Program-made: the position numbers and the translations under genes
The notes under the pieces: generated by a model
Told to the model about the DNA's origin: nothing
Databases searched by the model: none
Seen by the model: the letters and a program-made list of their open reading frames with translations, nothing else
Shown: positions 19,280 to 50,318 of the stretch, one piece after another
How positions within the stretch are numbered: position 1 is the first letter of the stretch
Layout: each line of letters starts with the position of its first letter
Source of the DNA: the human T2T-CHM13v2.0 reference genome, Homo sapiens
Length of the DNA: 64,000 nucleotides
NCBI RefSeq assembly: GCF_009914755.1
Contig: NC_060934.1
Reading direction: 5' to 3' (one strand)

Positions 19280-19710
19280 TGACTCCAAAATCTCAGCCCG
19301 CGGTGCTCACCGCGTGGGACCACTGTCTGGGCGTGCGGCTCTCGACCTCCGACGCTGCGTCTCCCGATCCCAGTGGGTCCAGTTCTTGCCGGTCCCACGT
19401 ACGGGCCCCTCGACCTCGAATCCCGTCACCCAAATCTCAGCGCCACGGCCCCTCATTATGAGCAGTCCTCGCTCGGTCCCAGGTTTGCGGCGCTTAAACT
19501 CAGATCGCTCTTCCCTGATCCCAAATCCCAGCCCCAGCCCAACGATCCCCACCCCAATAGGCCCAGTCCCCAGGTAGTCCGGGTACGGGGCCCTGGACTT
19601 CGGATAGTCTCCCTAATCTCAAATCCCACCCCCCGTCCCCACCCCCAGGGGGACCCGGTCCCCGCTAGGTCCCGGGTGTGCGGCCTTCGACCTCGGAGAC
19701 TTCGGCCGCC
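19280..19710. repeat. Degenerate GC-rich tandem repeat, about 4 units of ~90-150 bp
   Basis: Recurring (c)caaat(c/t)cagccc-like motif at ~19283, 19430, 19520 and 19618, and recurring tcgacctc-like motif at ~19341, 19410, 19593 and 19687. Confidence 0.6.
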
Positions 19711-20275
19711 CCTCACCTCGGCCTCCGAGTCTCTACACTCCCGCTCTCGTATCAGGCACCCCGGTGGTCCCTTGGAGCACCTAGAGGAGGGTGGGACGCG
19801 GGGAACTTGGCAGTTGTAGCAGAGGCAGTTGAGGCTTGTTGACCATCACCATGGAAACCCCCGCCTGCGAGCACGGGGCGGAGCCTACGAGGGGCGGGGT
19901 CAGGCGCGCTGCCGGCCCCAATCCTCAGCGCCTGCCCGTCGAGCGCACGCGGCTTTGCCGGAAGCCCTCCTGCTCCCGGCGAGCCAGGCCCCGACTAGGC
20001 CCTACTGCCCGGCTCAGCCCTTTGCCCTGGACACCAGGAAACAGAAGCCCAAGGAGCCCGCGTCCCCACCCCCTGCTACCTGCCGGCGTGACAGCGATTC
20101 GGTGGCCCCCCGAACCCCACCTTGAGGAAGACGCGGCGCAGTCCTGCTTCCACGACGGAGCCGGAAGGACGCAAGGACCGCGGCAGGGCGGAGTTTCTGC
20201 GTCCGGCGTCCGGGGGCGGGGCCGCGACGGCGCATTGTGACGCGCCAGAGCTGAGCCGCCGGTTGGCCGGCTGGG
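19510..20275 (-). repeat. Inverted paralogous segment, copy A (pairs with 49741-50318)
   Basis: Exact reverse-complement blocks: 20205-20229 = 49774-49798 (25 bp), 19832-19847 = 50076-50091, 19703-19725 = 50190-50212 (23 bp), 19513-19535 = 50294-50316 (23 bp), all collinear. Confidence 0.95.
19717..19850 (-). other. HNRNPF: HNRNPF distal first exon (TSS approximate)
   Basis: Strong donor CCGAG|gtgagg at 19717/19716 directly downstream of a GC-box/X-box core promoter; followed by intronic G-runs. Confidence 0.7.
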
Positions 20276-20534
20276 CGCGGAGCAGAGCCGACACGGCTGG
20301 CGGGGGAGGCGGTGGAGGCGGACAAGCGAGGACGTTTCTGGAGAGGAGAAGGGAGGGGAGGGGAGGGGATAGGGGGAGGGGGAGGAGGAGGAGGGAGTGG
20401 AGCGGCGGGAAAGATCCCTCTGACTGCCCCTGAGGCCCTGGAGGAAGGACACTGGTGAGCTCCGCAGGACACTGAAATGTGCGCCGAAAGGACGCCTGAT
20501 TGAAGACTAGGATGGGAAAAGGAAATGAGAGCCG

Positions 20535-21008
20535 ATGGCAGGGCGTGGTGGCGCAAGCCTGTGGTCCCAGTAATTTGGGAGGCTAAGGCGGGAGAATCGC
20601 TTGAGCCCGGGAGGTCGAGGCTGCAGTGATCCGTGACTGCTCCATTGCGTCCAGCCTGGGCGACAGAGCGAGGCGCTGTCTCAAAAAATAAAATAAGGAA
20701 AGTAGTACACTGAAGGCCGGGCGCGGTGGCTCACGCCTGTAATCCCACCACTTTGGGAGGCCGAGGCGGACGGATCAGGCGGTCGGGAAATCGAGACCAT
20801 CCTGGCCAACATAGTGAAACCCCTACTAAAATACAAAAAAATTAGCCAGGCGTGGTGGCGCGCGCTTGTAGTCCCAGCCACTCGGGTGGCTGAGGCAGGG
20901 GAATCGCTTGAACCCGGGAGGCGGAGCTTGCGTGAGCCGAGATCGCGCCACTGCACTCCAGCCTAGCGACAGAGCGAGACTACGTCTCAAAGAAAAAAAA
21001 AAAAAAAA
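20535..21008 (+). mobile_element. FRAM/right monomer (20535-20700) and full Alu (20715-21008)
   Basis: Alu consensus; TSD GTACACTGA around the full Alu. Confidence 0.85.
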
Positions 21009-21364
21009 GGTACACTGAGTACTCCGGAGACCGCCTAAAGGGGTCTCAGAGCAGGGCGTTAGGAGGGATTTGTCAGGTTGAAGTTGCTCAGGTGATAAAT
21101 TCCGTGGTGTGAGAAGCCCCCAAACCTCAGAATGTAACTCAGACCCAGGTCGAGGGCAAGATTTTCAGTCACAGAGCACCTGAACACACAGATTTGGTGG
21201 CTAATGGCTAAGCCAGGGACAGATTTTCTTTCTTTTCTTTTTTTTTTTGATGTATTGTAGGGCTAATAATTGTAACCATTTTATTTTGGTGGATCTTCTT
21301 CATGAAGAGATGATGTCAAGGCACTCATCACAGGTTAAGCTGAACATTGTTACTATTGTTATTA

Positions 21365-47594: not shown

Positions 47595-47621
47595 ACTCAA
47601 AGATTATTTCAACAATTTTAG

Positions 47622-49196
47622 GTGGGGCGCGGTGGCTCATGCCTGTAATCCCAGCACTCTGGGAGGCCGAGGCAGGCGATCACTTGAGGTCAGGAGTTTG
47701 AGACCAGCCTGGCCAACCTGGTGAAACCCCATCTCTACTAAGGTGGCAGGTGCCTGTAATCCCAGCTATTCGAGAGGCTGAGGCAGGAGAATTGCTTGAA
47801 CCTGGGAGGCAGAGGTTGCAGTGAGCCGAAATTGTGCTACTTCACTCCAGCCTGGGCGACAGAGCAAGACTCCTTCTCAAAAAAAAAAAAAAAAATTTTT
47901 TTTAAATCCAGAAAGCAGGAGGAATAGAGAGGAGCTAAAGCTGTCATTGGAGAAAAAGCAGTAATTACTCATGCTAGCTGAAGAAGGGATGTTTATTCTT
48001 CTGTGTGTGTGGTTGCGCAGTGCCAGTTTTTATTTATGCAGGCAAGATCACTGATCGGAATTATTTTCTCCTTTCCTCAGTCACAGAAAGAACTCGTCTG
48101 ATATCAATTTTCTGTGAACCTGTTTATGTTCATCAAGTAATCCAGGCCAGCTACCGTGGGTCTCAGGGCTTTTTTTTTTTTTTTTTTTTTTTTTTTTGGG
48201 ACAGAGTCTCGCTCTTGTTGCCCAGGCTGGAGTGCAATGGCGAGATCTCGGCTCACAGCAACCTCTGCCTCCCGGGTGCAAGCTATTCTCCTGCCTCAGC
48301 CTCCCGAATAACTGGGATCACAGGCATGTGCCACCACACCCAGCTAATTTTGAATTTTTAGTAGAGTTGGAGTTTCACCATGTAGGCCAGACTGATCTTA
48401 AACTCCTGATCTCAGGTGATCCACCCGCCTTGGCCTCCCAATGTGTTAGGATTACAGGCGTAAGCCACCACGCCCGGGCTTTTTATTTTTTTTCTTAATA
48501 ATGCTGCACCTAATCACATTTAGGTGGCAGGCAAAAGAATATTGCTTAGCTGCTTTGCTACAGAAATGACAACTCTTGGGCAGGGGCGCGGTGGCTCACG
48601 CCTGTAATCCTACCACTTTGGGAGGCCGAGGCCAGTGGATCACCTGAGGTCAAGAGTTCGACACCAGGCCGGGCACGGTGGCTCATGCCTGTAATCCCAG
48701 CACTTTGGGAGGCCGAGACGGGCGGATCACGAGGTCAGGAGATCAAGACCAACCTGGCTAACACGGTGAAACCCCGTCTCTACTAAAAATACAAAAAATT
48801 AGCCGGGCGTGGTGGCGGGGGCCTGTAGTCCCAGCTACTCGGGAGGCTGAGGCAAGACAATGGCGTGACCCTGGGAGGCGGAGCTTGCAGTGAGCTGAGA
48901 TCGCGCCACTGCACTCCACCCTGGGTGACAGAGCGAGACTCCGTCTCAAAAAAAAAAAAAAAAAGAGTTCGACACCAGCCTGGCCAAAATGGTGAAACCC
49001 CATCTCTACTAAAAACAAAAAAAATTAACCGGGCGTGGTGGCGGACGACTGTAATCCCAGCTACTCGGGAGCCTGAGGTAGGAGAATCACTTGAACTCGG
49101 GAGGCGGAGGTTGCAGTGAGCCAAGATCGCGCCACTGCACTCCAGCCTGGGCAACAAGAGCGAAACTTCGTCTCCAAAAAAAAAAAAAAAAAAAAG
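47622..49196. mobile_element. Alus: + 47622-47895; - 48170-48479; + 48583-49196 (AluY nested in AluS)
   Basis: Nested TSD AAGAGTTCGACACCA at ~48652 and ~48963; outer TSD GACAACT(C/T)TTG. Confidence 0.9.
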
Positions 49197-49740
49197 GACA
49201 ACTTTTGATCCCTGAGGCTGCTAATTCCAACTGTGTGCATGTGCTTAACAAATACCTCCGCACCCAGGCCTGGGAAGTTGGCTGATTTGTGTACAGCAAA
49301 TACGGCAGGCCTTATGTAGCAGAACTCTGACGAAAACGAACTGGACGCGTATTTCTCCTGCAGCGAAGGTCACGCTGCTGACAGCCTCTGCTTTGCACTT
49401 TGTCCCTGGGAAGGAGGCCTGTGGCCAGTCCTACCTCCTGGAAAGCCGGGGTGCGTCAGAGGACCTGATGCGGAGCGGGGACCCCATCCTCTCCGTGTCT
49501 CCCCAAGAGCCGGCGGCAGAGGCTGCCTGCGCTCCTTAAGCTAGGTCAGTTCTCTGGCCCGCAGTTCTCGTTCTCCTAACATCCTCCGCAGAAAACGACC
49601 TTCATTTTTTCCTCTTGCGCCAGTCTTGAAGCGGGGCGTCCTTTGGGCTCACGTTGCGGCGCCCAGCGGCCTCAAGCGTCAGCTGCCTCCAGGGCCTCAG
49701 GAGCAGTGGCTAGGGCCTGCCCTCCAGCGCCCGGGGTCCT

Positions 49741-50318
49741 CGGCCCAGCCCTGCTCCGAGCGCGTCACAATGGCGTCGCGGCCCCGCCCCCGGACGCCCA
49801 GCCGCGGTCCCAGCGACCTTCGCTTTCGTGGGGAAGCCGGACTGCGCCGTGTCTTCCTGAAGAAGGCTGGGGTAAGAGTCCGGCCAGCGGACAAGAGGGC
49901 AGCTGGTAGCAGGGTGGGATGCCCGTGGCATAGGGCCGAGCCCCCGCTAGGCACGCGGGAGCAGCAGGGCTTCCGGAAGCGCAGGGAGCGCTGGACTGGC
50001 GGGCGCCCGGGATTCGCGCAGGCCCCGCCCCTCGGCGGCCCCGCCCAGGGAGCGCTGCGGCAGTTTCCATGGTGAGATGGTCAACAAGCCTGTAAGTTCC
50101 TCAGCTACGACTACCAGGTACCTCGGGTTCCTCCCTCCTCCGAGAGACCGCCGAGGTGCGGGCTGTGAGAGGGGGAGCGTGGAGCCTCCGAGGCCGAGGT
50201 GAGGGGCGGCCGGCGGGCAGGGGCCGGGTCTGAGGTCGAGGGCCGCACACCCAGGATCGAGCGGGGACTGGGCCCGCTGGGGGTGGGGACCGTGGGGCTG
50301 GGATTTGGGATCAGGGCG
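49741..50318 (+). repeat. Inverted paralogous segment, copy B (pairs with 19510-20275)
   Basis: Same collinear exact blocks; ORF track shows shared peptides EAGLRRVFLK, PPLTSASE, EEGGTRGTW and LIPNPSP on opposite strands. Confidence 0.95.
49770..50071 (+). CDS. ZNF487: Candidate coding first exon MASRPRPRTP...GALRQFP (100 codons + 2 nt, phase-2 donor)
   Basis: Strong Kozak (cacaATGG), frame open to the donor at 50072; resembles the N-terminus I recall for a ZNF487 isoform, not verified. Confidence 0.35.

What the first reader, a model, noticed from the sequence alone, without database searches (positions are those of the whole stretch)
19510..50318. HNRNPF distal promoter and the putative ZNF487 promoter are an ancient inverted duplication of each other
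Seen: 19510-20275 is the reverse-complement homologue of 49741-50318. Collinear exact blocks are 25 bp (20205-20229/49774-49798), 16 bp (19832-19847/50076-50091), 23 bp spanning the first splice donor (19703-19725/50190-50212) and 23 bp in intron 1 (19513-19535/50294-50316). GC boxes, the CTTCCGG ETS site and the GTTTCCATGGTGA X-box-like motif are shared. The spacers have many substitutions and indels, so the event is old, and I do not recognise the segment as a repeat family. Inference: two unrelated, divergently transcribed genes 30 kb apart use paralogous promoter/exon 1 modules. HNRNPF has a single-exon, retrogene-like CDS (established). Either it captured a duplicated KRAB-ZNF promoter, or ZNF487 was switched on by a copy of the HNRNPF promoter. 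The conserved blocks footprint the functional cis-elements.
Basis: partly seen in the sequence, partly recalled or inferred. Interest (0 to 1): 0.9.

Follow-up and report, generated by a model that had tools for sequence, protein, structure and literature searches.

The report
ZNF487 promoter copied from HNRNPF
The start of the zinc-finger gene ZNF487 is an old, flipped copy of the start of its neighbour HNRNPF, and a decayed scrap of HNRNPF coding sequence inside ZNF487 suggests that a whole duplicate of HNRNPF died and left its promoter to the zinc-finger gene.

Summary
Window 19512-20245 (reverse strand) is homologous to 49760-50319, with a weaker collinear block further upstream (20423-20525 / 49608-49707). 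Ungapped identity is 77%. The local score is 173, against 15.9±2.1 for 200 dinucleotide shuffles. All four exact blocks check out.

It is not a dispersed repeat. In the whole T2T genome each arm finds only the other arm, plus SVA elements that carry ZNF487 exon 1.

The shared module holds two alternative first exons. The RefSeq starts 20176 and 49809 are the same aligned base, and the donors after 19717 and 50198 are the same aligned base.

New here: ZNF487 intron 1 holds a decayed piece of HNRNPF coding sequence on the ZNF487 strand (62267-62397), 12.5 kb below the promoter. Its only genome-wide match is the HNRNPF coding exon.

So a whole HNRNPF-type gene was most likely duplicated in inverted orientation. 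The copy lost its coding exon, and its promoter now serves a KRAB zinc-finger gene about 38 kb downstream.

The age (roughly 100 My or more) is inferred, not shown, because no other mammalian genome was available. This is a new instance of a known kind of event.

The parts
19512..20245 (-). HNRNPF distal promoter module. It holds the P1 core (20245-20177), exon 1a (20176-20121, or to 20080), a poorly conserved spacer, P2 (about 19990-19848), exon 1b (19847-19717), and the start of the intron with a ~90-bp unit in tandem (19691-19610, 19598-19512).
   Evidence: Alignment A1. Segment identities. Exact blocks. Tandem unit. Exon coordinates come from the hub's RefSeq table.
20423..20525 (-). Upstream collinear block on the HNRNPF side. 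It is the innermost detectable edge of the duplication, and an Alu follows it.
   Evidence: blastn 73.6% over 106, E 4e-9. nhmmer E 5e-5. It includes a 16-bp exact block, 20429-20444/49686-49701.
49608..49707 (+). Upstream collinear block on the ZNF487 side.
49760..50319 (+). ZNF487 promoter module. It holds the P1 core (49760-49808), exon 1a (starts 49784/49809; ends 49871/49901), P2 (about 49945-50073), exon 1b (50047-50198; alternative end 50091), and a single ~90-bp intron unit (50229-50319).
   Evidence: with the hub's RefSeq table.
62267..62397 (+). Decayed relic of HNRNPF coding sequence in ZNF487 intron 1, on the ZNF487 strand. It corresponds to ORF residues 75-114 and sits directly after an Alu.
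   Evidence: blastn 73% over 100, E 3.6e-10. tblastn 40% over 40 aa, E 0.001. nhmmer E 3e-6. SW score 42 against 14.0±1.8 for shuffles, max 21. It scores best against HNRNPF among 12 family loci. The HNRNPF coding exon is its only genome-wide hit.
62485..62546 (+). Possible relic of the proximal HNRNPF 3'UTR, collinear with the coding relic. The evidence is weak.
   Evidence: SW score 24 against 13.6±1.5 for shuffles, max 21 of 200; the opposite strand scores 14. nhmmer E 0.94 for an overlapping stretch.

Best explanation
An ancestral HNRNPF-type gene was duplicated in inverted orientation, giving two copies head to head. The duplicated unit held a CpG-island dual promoter, two alternative non-coding first exons, and a single coding exone further downstream; in other words, a whole gene. 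The left copy stayed HNRNPF.

In the right copy the coding exon decayed. About 130 nt of it, and perhaps a scrap of 3'UTR, survive in what is now ZNF487 intron 1. The right copy's promoter, transcription starts and splice donors were kept. Transcripts that start there now splice to KRAB and zinc-finger exons 38-46 kb downstream. ZNF487 is therefore a chimera: an HNRNPF-derived 5' module on a KRAB zinc-finger body.

Shown here: the homology, its uniqueness in the genome, the matching positions of starts and donors, and the coding relic with its strand and order.

Inferred:
- that promoter and relic come from one duplication event;
- that the zinc-finger gene took the promoter by read-through splicing after the copy lost its terminal exon;
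- that both promoter copies are under purifying selection;
- that the event is of about eutherian age.
For: 1. The homology is real and unique. SW score is 173 against 15.9±2.1 for shuffles. Genome-wide, each arm finds only the other arm plus SVA-borne ZNF487 exon 1.

2. Gene anatomy is copied, not only sequence.
- RefSeq start 20176 aligns to start 49809, both CGCGGT>CC.
- The donor after 19717 aligns to the donor after 50198, both GGCCGAG|GTGAGGGGCG.
- The exon 1a donor has moved 9 nt in ZNF487.
- The alternative donor at 20080 (GT) lies within a few bases of 49901 (GC).

3. There is a coding relic at 62267-62397 on the + strand, 12.5 kb below the ZNF487 promoter. In HNRNPF the coding start is 21.3 kb below its promoter.
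- SW 42 against 14.0±1.8; nhmmer E 3e-6; tblastn E 0.001, with [14 protein letters not shown] against KSHRTEMDWVLKHS.
- A whole-genome search with 62257-62609 returns only itself and the HNRNPF coding exon (73%, E 1.2e-5).
- Among the 12 HNRNPF/H-family loci compared, HNRNPF scores highest (42; next best 33 and 32).
- The relic runs across the point where HNRNPH1 matches stop (62319). This fits an origin from an intronless coding exon.

4. Order and strand are the same in both copies: upstream block, P1, exon 1a, P2, exon 1b, coding piece, and weakly a 3'UTR piece.

5. The pattern of conservation fits constraint on both promoter copies. P1 core is 96%, and P2, exon 1b and the first 90 nt of intron are 77-80%. 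The spacers are 42-60%, and the rest of the introns and upstream DNA show nothing. By contrast, the relic is 73% identical to a coding exon that is itself constrained.

6. The age is plausible. Supplementary file 1 of PMC10547255 lists ZNF487 at 105 My (armadillo) (passage seen).
Against: - Only about 100-130 nt of coding sequence survive. The 3'UTR piece is weak (SW 24 against a shuffle max of 21).
- The first ~210 nt of the coding exon were looked for in the unique DNA before the Alu cluster and not found (score 18 against a shuffle max of 19).
- None of the other HNRNPF 5'UTR exons or CpG islands (7200-8599, 18100-18699) has a detectable partner on the ZNF487 side.
- Promoter-to-coding spacing differs: 12.5 kb against 21.3 kb.
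- The parent coding exon has no introns, so the relic alone cannot be told apart from an old retrocopy.
- No other mammalian genome, no repeat library (Dfam/RepeatMasker) and no expression or binding data were available. Age, direction by outgroup, and function of the conserved blocks are therefore untested.
- Use of the ZNF487 starts rests on the RefSeq table supplied by the hub.
- Gene conversion between the arms could have kept them more alike than their age implies.
Confidence: 0.75

Rival explanations
1. Only the ~1-kb promoter and first-exon module was duplicated in inverted orientation. The HNRNPF coding scrap at 62.3 kb is an unrelated old retrocopy that landed in the intron by chance.
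For: No homology is detectable between the promoter module and the relic, or in any other intron DNA. The parent coding exon is intronless, so a retrocopy would look the same. The genome holds several HNRNPF/H-like retrocopies (chrX:141.98M, chr5:56.67M, chr6:160.96M, chr1:41.91M).
Against: The relic lies on the right strand, in the right order, within 12.5 kb of the only other copy of the HNRNPF promoter in 3.1 Gb. With the roughly 14 family loci seen, or even several times more weak ones, the chance that one falls within 40 kb downstream on the same strand is of the order of 1e-4 (my estimate). Its divergence (73%) is like that of the promoter module. Its best and only genome-wide match is HNRNPF itself. 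No spliced 5'UTR exons are seen next to it.
Confidence: 0.15
2. The direction is the reverse. The module was first a KRAB zinc-finger promoter, and a retroposed HNRNPF coding sequence captured a copy of it.
For: HNRNPF has a single coding exon, which looks retrogene-like. KRAB zinc-finger genes duplicate often.
Against: An HNRNPF coding relic sits below the ZNF487-side copy as well, so promoter and HNRNPF coding exon were already linked when the duplication happened. No other zinc-finger promoter in the genome resembles either arm. The KRAB exon lies 38.5 kb from the module, with the relic in between.
Confidence: 0.04
3. The similarity is a dispersed repeat, or a chance likeness between two GC-rich CpG islands.
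For: Both arms are CpG islands (GC 0.68 and 0.71, CpG o/e 0.73 and 0.77). Such islands share GC boxes.
Against: SW 173 against a shuffle max of 26 (200 shuffles) and against a max of 32 for 27 natural GC-rich windows. Only two genomic copies exist outside SVA-borne exon 1. Exact blocks of 23-25 bp lie in collinear order.
Confidence: 0.01

Closest known systems
Chimeric genes that gain a promoter and 5' exon from a duplicated neighbour, by 5' exon or promoter capture after segmental duplication (a general class, recalled from the literature on new-gene origin)
   Same: A duplicated 5' module (promoter, start, non-coding first exon, donor) of one gene drives an unrelated downstream coding body. 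The donor copy's own coding part is dead.
   Different: Here the donor is a housekeeping RNA-binding protein gene and the recipient is a KRAB zinc-finger gene. The duplication is inverted and old (about 77% identity). Two alternative first exons were carried over together. Both copies still keep the same start and donor positions.
Bidirectional (head-to-head) CpG-island promoters
   Same: The two genes are divergently transcribed from CpG islands with GC boxes and an ETS-like CTTCCGG.
   Different: The starts are about 29.6 kb apart, not under 1 kb. There are two separate paralogous islands, not one shared island.
SVA promoter/exon trapping, as in MAST2 exon 1 in SVA_F1 (PMC5007689, passage seen, which lists ZNF487 among trapped promoters)
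   Same: ZNF487 exon 1b, ending exactly at its donor, is carried at the 5' end of at least 4 SVA copies. The same HNRNPF-derived exon has therefore been captured a second time.
   Different: That capture is young (98-99% identity) and made by retrotransposition. The HNRNPF/ZNF487 pair is an old DNA-level duplication.

Membership tests
Dispersed repeat / transposable-element family | Many copies scattered through the genome | tested here: not met
   Whole-genome searches with each arm find only the other arm. The ZNF487-arm query also finds three SVA-borne copies of exon 1b, and the HNRNPF-arm query one of them. The search scores only the best candidates and is not a Dfam search.
Dispersed repeat / transposable-element family | Match to a curated repeat consensus (Dfam/RepeatMasker) | not testable with these tools
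   No repeat library is held. By the hub's list of the longest masked stretches, neither arm is in one.
Inverted gene duplication with promoter capture | Significant homology between the two loci in inverted orientation | tested here: met
   SW 173 against shuffles 15.9±2.1. The direct orientation scores 19.
Inverted gene duplication with promoter capture | Several gene parts shared in the same order and strand (promoter, first exons, coding exon) | tested here: met
   Upstream block, P1, exon 1a, P2, exon 1b and the coding relic at 62267-62397. The 3'UTR piece is weak. The other UTR exons were not found.
Inverted gene duplication with promoter capture | The recipient gene's transcripts start in the copied module and splice to its own coding exons | tested here: inconclusive
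   The RefSeq table from the hub places all listed ZNF487 first exons in the module, and the donors are intact. A KRAB-A frame lies at about 88692 and fingers at 95355-95900. The exon 2-4 coordinates were not given, and no RNA data were seen.
Inverted gene duplication with promoter capture | Both copies present at orthologous places in other mammals, which would date the event | not testable with these tools
   No other mammalian genome is held. The only indirect evidence is ZNF487 listed at 105 My in a supplement of PMC10547255.
Processed pseudogene (retrocopy) of HNRNPF, for the 62.3-kb relic | Poly(A) tail, target-site duplications, spliced 5'UTR exons attached | tested here: inconclusive
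   No 5'UTR exon homology lies next to the relic. Alus flank it on both sides. At this level of decay, tails and target-site duplications could not be sought.
Bidirectional promoter | Divergent starts less than about 1 kb apart in one CpG island | tested here: not met
   The starts 20176 and 49784/49809 are about 29.6 kb apart and lie in two separate islands.

The most novel reading that the evidence does not exclude
ZNF487 is an ancient chimera born from a dead inverted duplicate of HNRNPF. The duplicate's dual housekeeping promoter, with both alternative first exons, has been kept under selection in both copies for about 100 My. An RNA-binding protein gene and a KRAB zinc-finger gene 30 kb apart therefore share inherited cis-regulatory logic. 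The same exon was then captured a third time by SVA retrotransposons. The 23-25-bp exact blocks would then be a natural two-copy footprint of the essential elements of the HNRNPF promoter.
Probability: 0.55. Interest if true: 0.5.

Novelty: new member of a known kind. Interest (0 to 1): 0.45.

Why it matters
- It explains where ZNF487's promoter and non-coding first exons came from. ZNF487 is an old KRAB zinc-finger gene once filed as a pseudogene (ZNF487P). The explanation gives a clear, datable case of promoter inheritance from a dead gene duplicate.
- The two copies act as an internal footprint of the HNRNPF distal promoter. What survived in both is a short list of candidate functional elements: the P1 core with its GC box, the CTTCCGG, two GC boxes, GTTTCCATGGTGA..GATGGTCAACAAGCCT, and the donor region.
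- It predicts that HNRNPF distal-promoter transcripts and ZNF487 are co-regulated.
- It shows that "unrelated" neighbouring genes can share regulation by descent rather than by sharing an enhancer.
- It is not a new kind of mechanism.

Tried and rejected
- **LOC100130881 as the duplicate's coding exon.** I suspected this pseudogene at the far end of ZNF487 might be it. Its frames are degenerate C2H2 zinc fingers, not HNRNPF.
- **More homology in the introns and between the arms.** I searched with blastn filtered for low copy number. I also ran nhmmer on sequence masked by self-hit coverage. Nothing appeared beyond the promoter module, the upstream block and the coding relic. My masking also hid the relic itself.
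- **The first 210 nt of the coding exon.** I searched the unique DNA before the Alu cluster and segments after the relic. None was significant.
- **CpG island at 68300-69099 as a partner of HNRNPF's proximal island.** There is no homology, and it is unique in the genome.
- **Tandem Repeats Finder.** It did not report the ~90-bp intron unit. Pairwise alignment did.
- **Source of the SVA linker.** The 30-nt linker between ZNF487 exon 1 and the SVA body is absent from the 148 kb around the gene.
- **Literature.**
  - ZNF487+HNRNPF: 1 paper, a telomere-length GWAS table that is not about this.
  - KRBO1: 0 papers.
  - HNRNPF + "inverted duplication": 0 papers.
  - ZNF487+KRAB+"evolutionary age": none of the 20 listed papers holds ZNF487 in its main text.
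Full report
**1. The observation**

Read on the reverse strand, window 19400-20400 aligns with 49600-50450 on the forward strand. The fourth is 24 bp rather than 23.

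blastn joins 19608-20319 to 50319-49685, at 66.5% identity over 735 columns with gaps and E about 1e-66. In the MAFFT alignment, 20245-19608 has 417 matches, 128 mismatches and 108 gap columns, or 77% where both have a base.

A Smith-Waterman score of 173 compares with the following controls:
- 200 dinucleotide-preserving shuffles: 15.9±2.1, max 26.
- The three wrong orientations: 18-20.
- 27 natural windows of GC 0.60 or more from the surrounding 148 kb: at most 32.

The likeness is therefore far beyond what two CpG islands share by composition.

When all self-matches of the window are filtered for low copy number, this pair is the only one left. One short collinear block remains further upstream (20423-20525 against 49707-49608, 73.6% over 106).

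**2. It is not a repeat family**

The window's genome is held (3.1 Gb, 24 contigs; the window is C10:44268001-44332000).

- The ZNF487 arm finds itself, the HNRNPF arm in three pieces (72-77%), and three places on chr7, chr2 and chr13. Those three match only query 363-500, 395-500 and 444-500 at 98-99%.
- The HNRNPF arm finds itself, the ZNF487 arm and the chr7 place.

The extra places are SVA retrotransposons. In each, the match ends exactly at the ZNF487 exon 1b donor. A 30-nt linker follows, then the SVA hexamer repeat, Alu-like part and VNTR. A pattern search for the linker found a fourth, shorter copy on chr11.

These are young retrotransposed copies of a spliced ZNF487 transcript, not members of an old repeat family. 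One paper lists ZNF487 among promoters trapped by SVA (PMC5007689, passage seen).

The genome search scores only its best candidates, and no Dfam library is held. "Two copies" therefore means two copies at the sensitivity that found a 72% match.

**3. Anatomy of the shared module**

I used the RefSeq coordinates supplied by the hub together with alignment A1. Both copies hold two alternative first exons, each behind its own promoter.

| Segment | HNRNPF | ZNF487 | Ungapped identity |
|---|---|---|---|
| P1 core | 20245-20177 | 49760-49808 | 96% |
| Exon 1a | 20176-20121 | 49809-49862 | 78% |
| P2 | 19990-19848 | 49945-50073 | 77% |
| Exon 1b | 19847-19717 | 50076-50198 | 79% |
| Intron after exon 1b (about 90 nt; the 20 nt next to the donor, 19716-19697, were counted apart, also 80%) | 19696-19608 | 50230-50319 | 80% |

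- The P1 core holds GCGCGTCACAATG and a 25-bp block with a GC box. HNRNPF has 20 extra bases here.
- The HNRNPF start 20176 and the ZNF487 start 49809 are the same aligned base (CGCGGT>CC in both).
- P2 holds GGGCTTCCGG, two GC boxes and GTTTCCATGGTGA.
- The exon 1b donors after 19717 and after 50198 are the same aligned base (GGCCGAG|GTGAGGGGCG in both).
- The exon 1a donor of HNRNPF (CAAG|GTGGGG) is lost in ZNF487 (GAAG AAGG). ZNF487 uses a GT 9 nt further on (49871|GTAAGA).
- The alternative HNRNPF donor (20080, GGCAG|GTAGCA) lies beside a ZNF487 exon end that uses GC (49901, GGCA|GCTGGTAGCA).

The spacers between these parts are 42-60% identical, which means not alignable. So is 20246-20299 against 49705-49758 (43%).

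HNRNPF has the intron unit twice in tandem (19691-19610 and 19598-19512). ZNF487 has it once, and that copy is closer to unit 1 (77/92 against 69/89).

**4. What else was duplicated**

I extended the view to 148.5 kb and compared the whole HNRNPF gene with everything from 49 kb to 144 kb.

One more low-copy, inverted, collinear match appeared. HNRNPF coding sequence at window -1427..-1330 matches 62267-62362, at 73% over 100 and E 3.6e-10. The HNRNPF coding exon lies just left of the window, at about -2374..-1121.

Further tests of this match:
- tblastn of the HNRNPF frame against 123 kb gives one significant hit. ORF residues 75-114 match 62278-62397 on the + strand, 40% over 40 aa, E 0.001, with [14 protein letters not shown] against KSHRTEMDWVLKHS.
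- nhmmer gives E 3e-6.
- Smith-Waterman gives 42, against 14.0±1.8 for shuffles (max 21).
- A whole-genome search with 62257-62609 returns only itself and the HNRNPF coding exon (73%, E 1.2e-5).
- Among the 12 loci of the HNRNPF/H family compared out of those found, HNRNPF scores best (42). HNRNPH2 scores 32, the four retrocopies 23-33, and HNRNPH1 exons 27.
- The HNRNPH1 matches begin only at 62319. The relic therefore spans what is an exon junction in HNRNPH1, as expected for a copy of an intronless coding exon.
- A second collinear piece, 62485-62546 against the proximal 3'UTR (-2471..-2531), is weak. It scores 24 against 13.6±1.5 for shuffles, max 21, with nhmmer E 0.94.

The first 210 nt of the coding exon, the other 5'UTR exons and all intron DNA show nothing. 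An Alu directly abuts the relic. On the ZNF487 side, only about 2.4 kb of the window from the promoter module to its end is free of repeats by my coverage mask.

**5. Geometry of ZNF487**

- A KRAB-A-like frame lies at about 88692.
- C2H2 fingers lie at 95355-95900, one of them with an in-frame stop.
- A second finger array lies at 137137-138041. It overlaps LOC100130881, whose frames are zinc fingers.

So the order on the + strand is:
1. HNRNPF-type promoter and first exons (49.6-50.3 kb)
2. HNRNPF coding relic (62.3 kb)
3. KRAB (88.7 kb)
4. Fingers (95.4 kb)

**6. Best explanation**

A whole HNRNPF-type gene was duplicated in inverted orientation. Its inner edge is near 20525/49608. It reached at least to the coding exon and perhaps the 3'UTR, which is 23 kb or more of today's HNRNPF.

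One copy stayed HNRNPF. The other lost its coding exon but kept its CpG-island promoters, starts and donors. These now splice to a KRAB zinc-finger body downstream.

Promoter and HNRNPF coding exon were already linked when the duplication happened, so ZNF487 runs on a copy of the HNRNPF promoter.

The argument that promoter copy and relic belong to one event is statistical. The genome holds about 14 HNRNPF/H-like loci at the sensitivity. Even with several times more weak ones, I estimate the chance at about 1e-4 that one lies within 40 kb downstream of the only other copy of this promoter and on the same strand.

The capture mechanism is inference: read-through splicing after loss of the terminal exon.

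Selection on both copies is also inferred, from the contrast between two figures. The relic is 73% identical to a partner that is itself constrained. Two freely drifting copies should therefore be near 55-60% identical and undetectable, as the introns indeed are. The promoter parts are 77-96% identical. Hypomethylated CpG islands mutate more slowly, and gene conversion between the arms could also contribute.

**7. Age**

The relic has 73 matches in about 94 aligned bases. That gives a Jukes-Cantor distance of about 0.27, carried mostly by one branch. By recalled mammalian neutral rates, this points to roughly 100 My or more.

A supplement of PMC10547255 lists ZNF487 as 105 My old, with armadillo as the furthest species (passage seen). 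This is compatible, but it dates the zinc-finger part, not the promoter. No other mammalian genome could be searched, so the age is not shown.

**8. Comparison with what is known**

Gain of a promoter and 5' exon from a duplicated neighbour is a known route to chimeric genes (recalled). This is a new instance with three unusual features. It is an inverted, old duplicate of a housekeeping gene. Two alternative first exons were carried over together. Start and donor positions have been held in both copies.

It is not a bidirectional promoter, because the starts are about 29.6 kb apart. It is not a repeat family.

I found no paper describing it:
- ZNF487+HNRNPF gave 1 paper, an unrelated GWAS table.
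- KRBO1 gave 0 papers.
- HNRNPF + "inverted duplication" gave 0 papers.

The library lacks most subscription journals.

**9. Verdict**

The finding is of moderate interest: a neat, testable case of promoter inheritance, not a new mechanism.

The names ETS, SP1/GC box, X-box and YY1 for the shared motifs are recalled resemblances. No motif library was available to test them.

Noticed in passing
window 50062-50198 (ZNF487 exon 1b); loci L002 (chr7), L004 (chr2), L005 (chr13), L054 (chr11): At least four SVA retrotransposons carry ZNF487 exon 1b at their 5' end at 98-99% identity. The exon is cut at different 5' points and ends exactly at the donor. The same 30-nt linker follows, then the SVA hexamer repeat; in the chr7 copy the hexamer is missing. 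The linker is not found in the 148 kb around ZNF487, so the source element is not in this assembly's locus. PMC5007689 lists ZNF487 among SVA-trapped promoters.
   Followed up: partly
window 19280-19700 (HNRNPF intron after exon 1b): There is a degenerate tandem array of a ~90-bp G-rich unit (19691-19610, 19598-19512), with weaker similarity down to about 19278. Tandem Repeats Finder did not report it. ZNF487 has a single unit.
   Followed up: partly
about 68300-69099 in window coordinates (L014:4300-5099), beyond the window's end, in a ZNF487 intron: A CpG island (GC 0.65, CpG o/e 0.91, 78 CpG) that is unique in the genome and has no homology to HNRNPF. It could be another promoter, perhaps the zinc-finger gene's earlier one. 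Its function was not examined.
   Followed up: partly
about 95605-95670 in window coordinates (L017), beyond the window's end: One finger of the ZNF487 C2H2 array reads CKECGKTFSQKPNFINHQ*TH, with an in-frame stop inside the array. This fits the gene's former name ZNF487P.
   Followed up: no
window 33600-34500, 59691-60028, and 78685-79027 (beyond the window): Three SVA-like stretches lie in and near the window. The one at about 33783-34122 is on the + strand and lies in exon 2 of LINC02916. The other two are on the - strand. None is placed so that it could be the source of the ZNF487-exon SVA group.
   Followed up: partly
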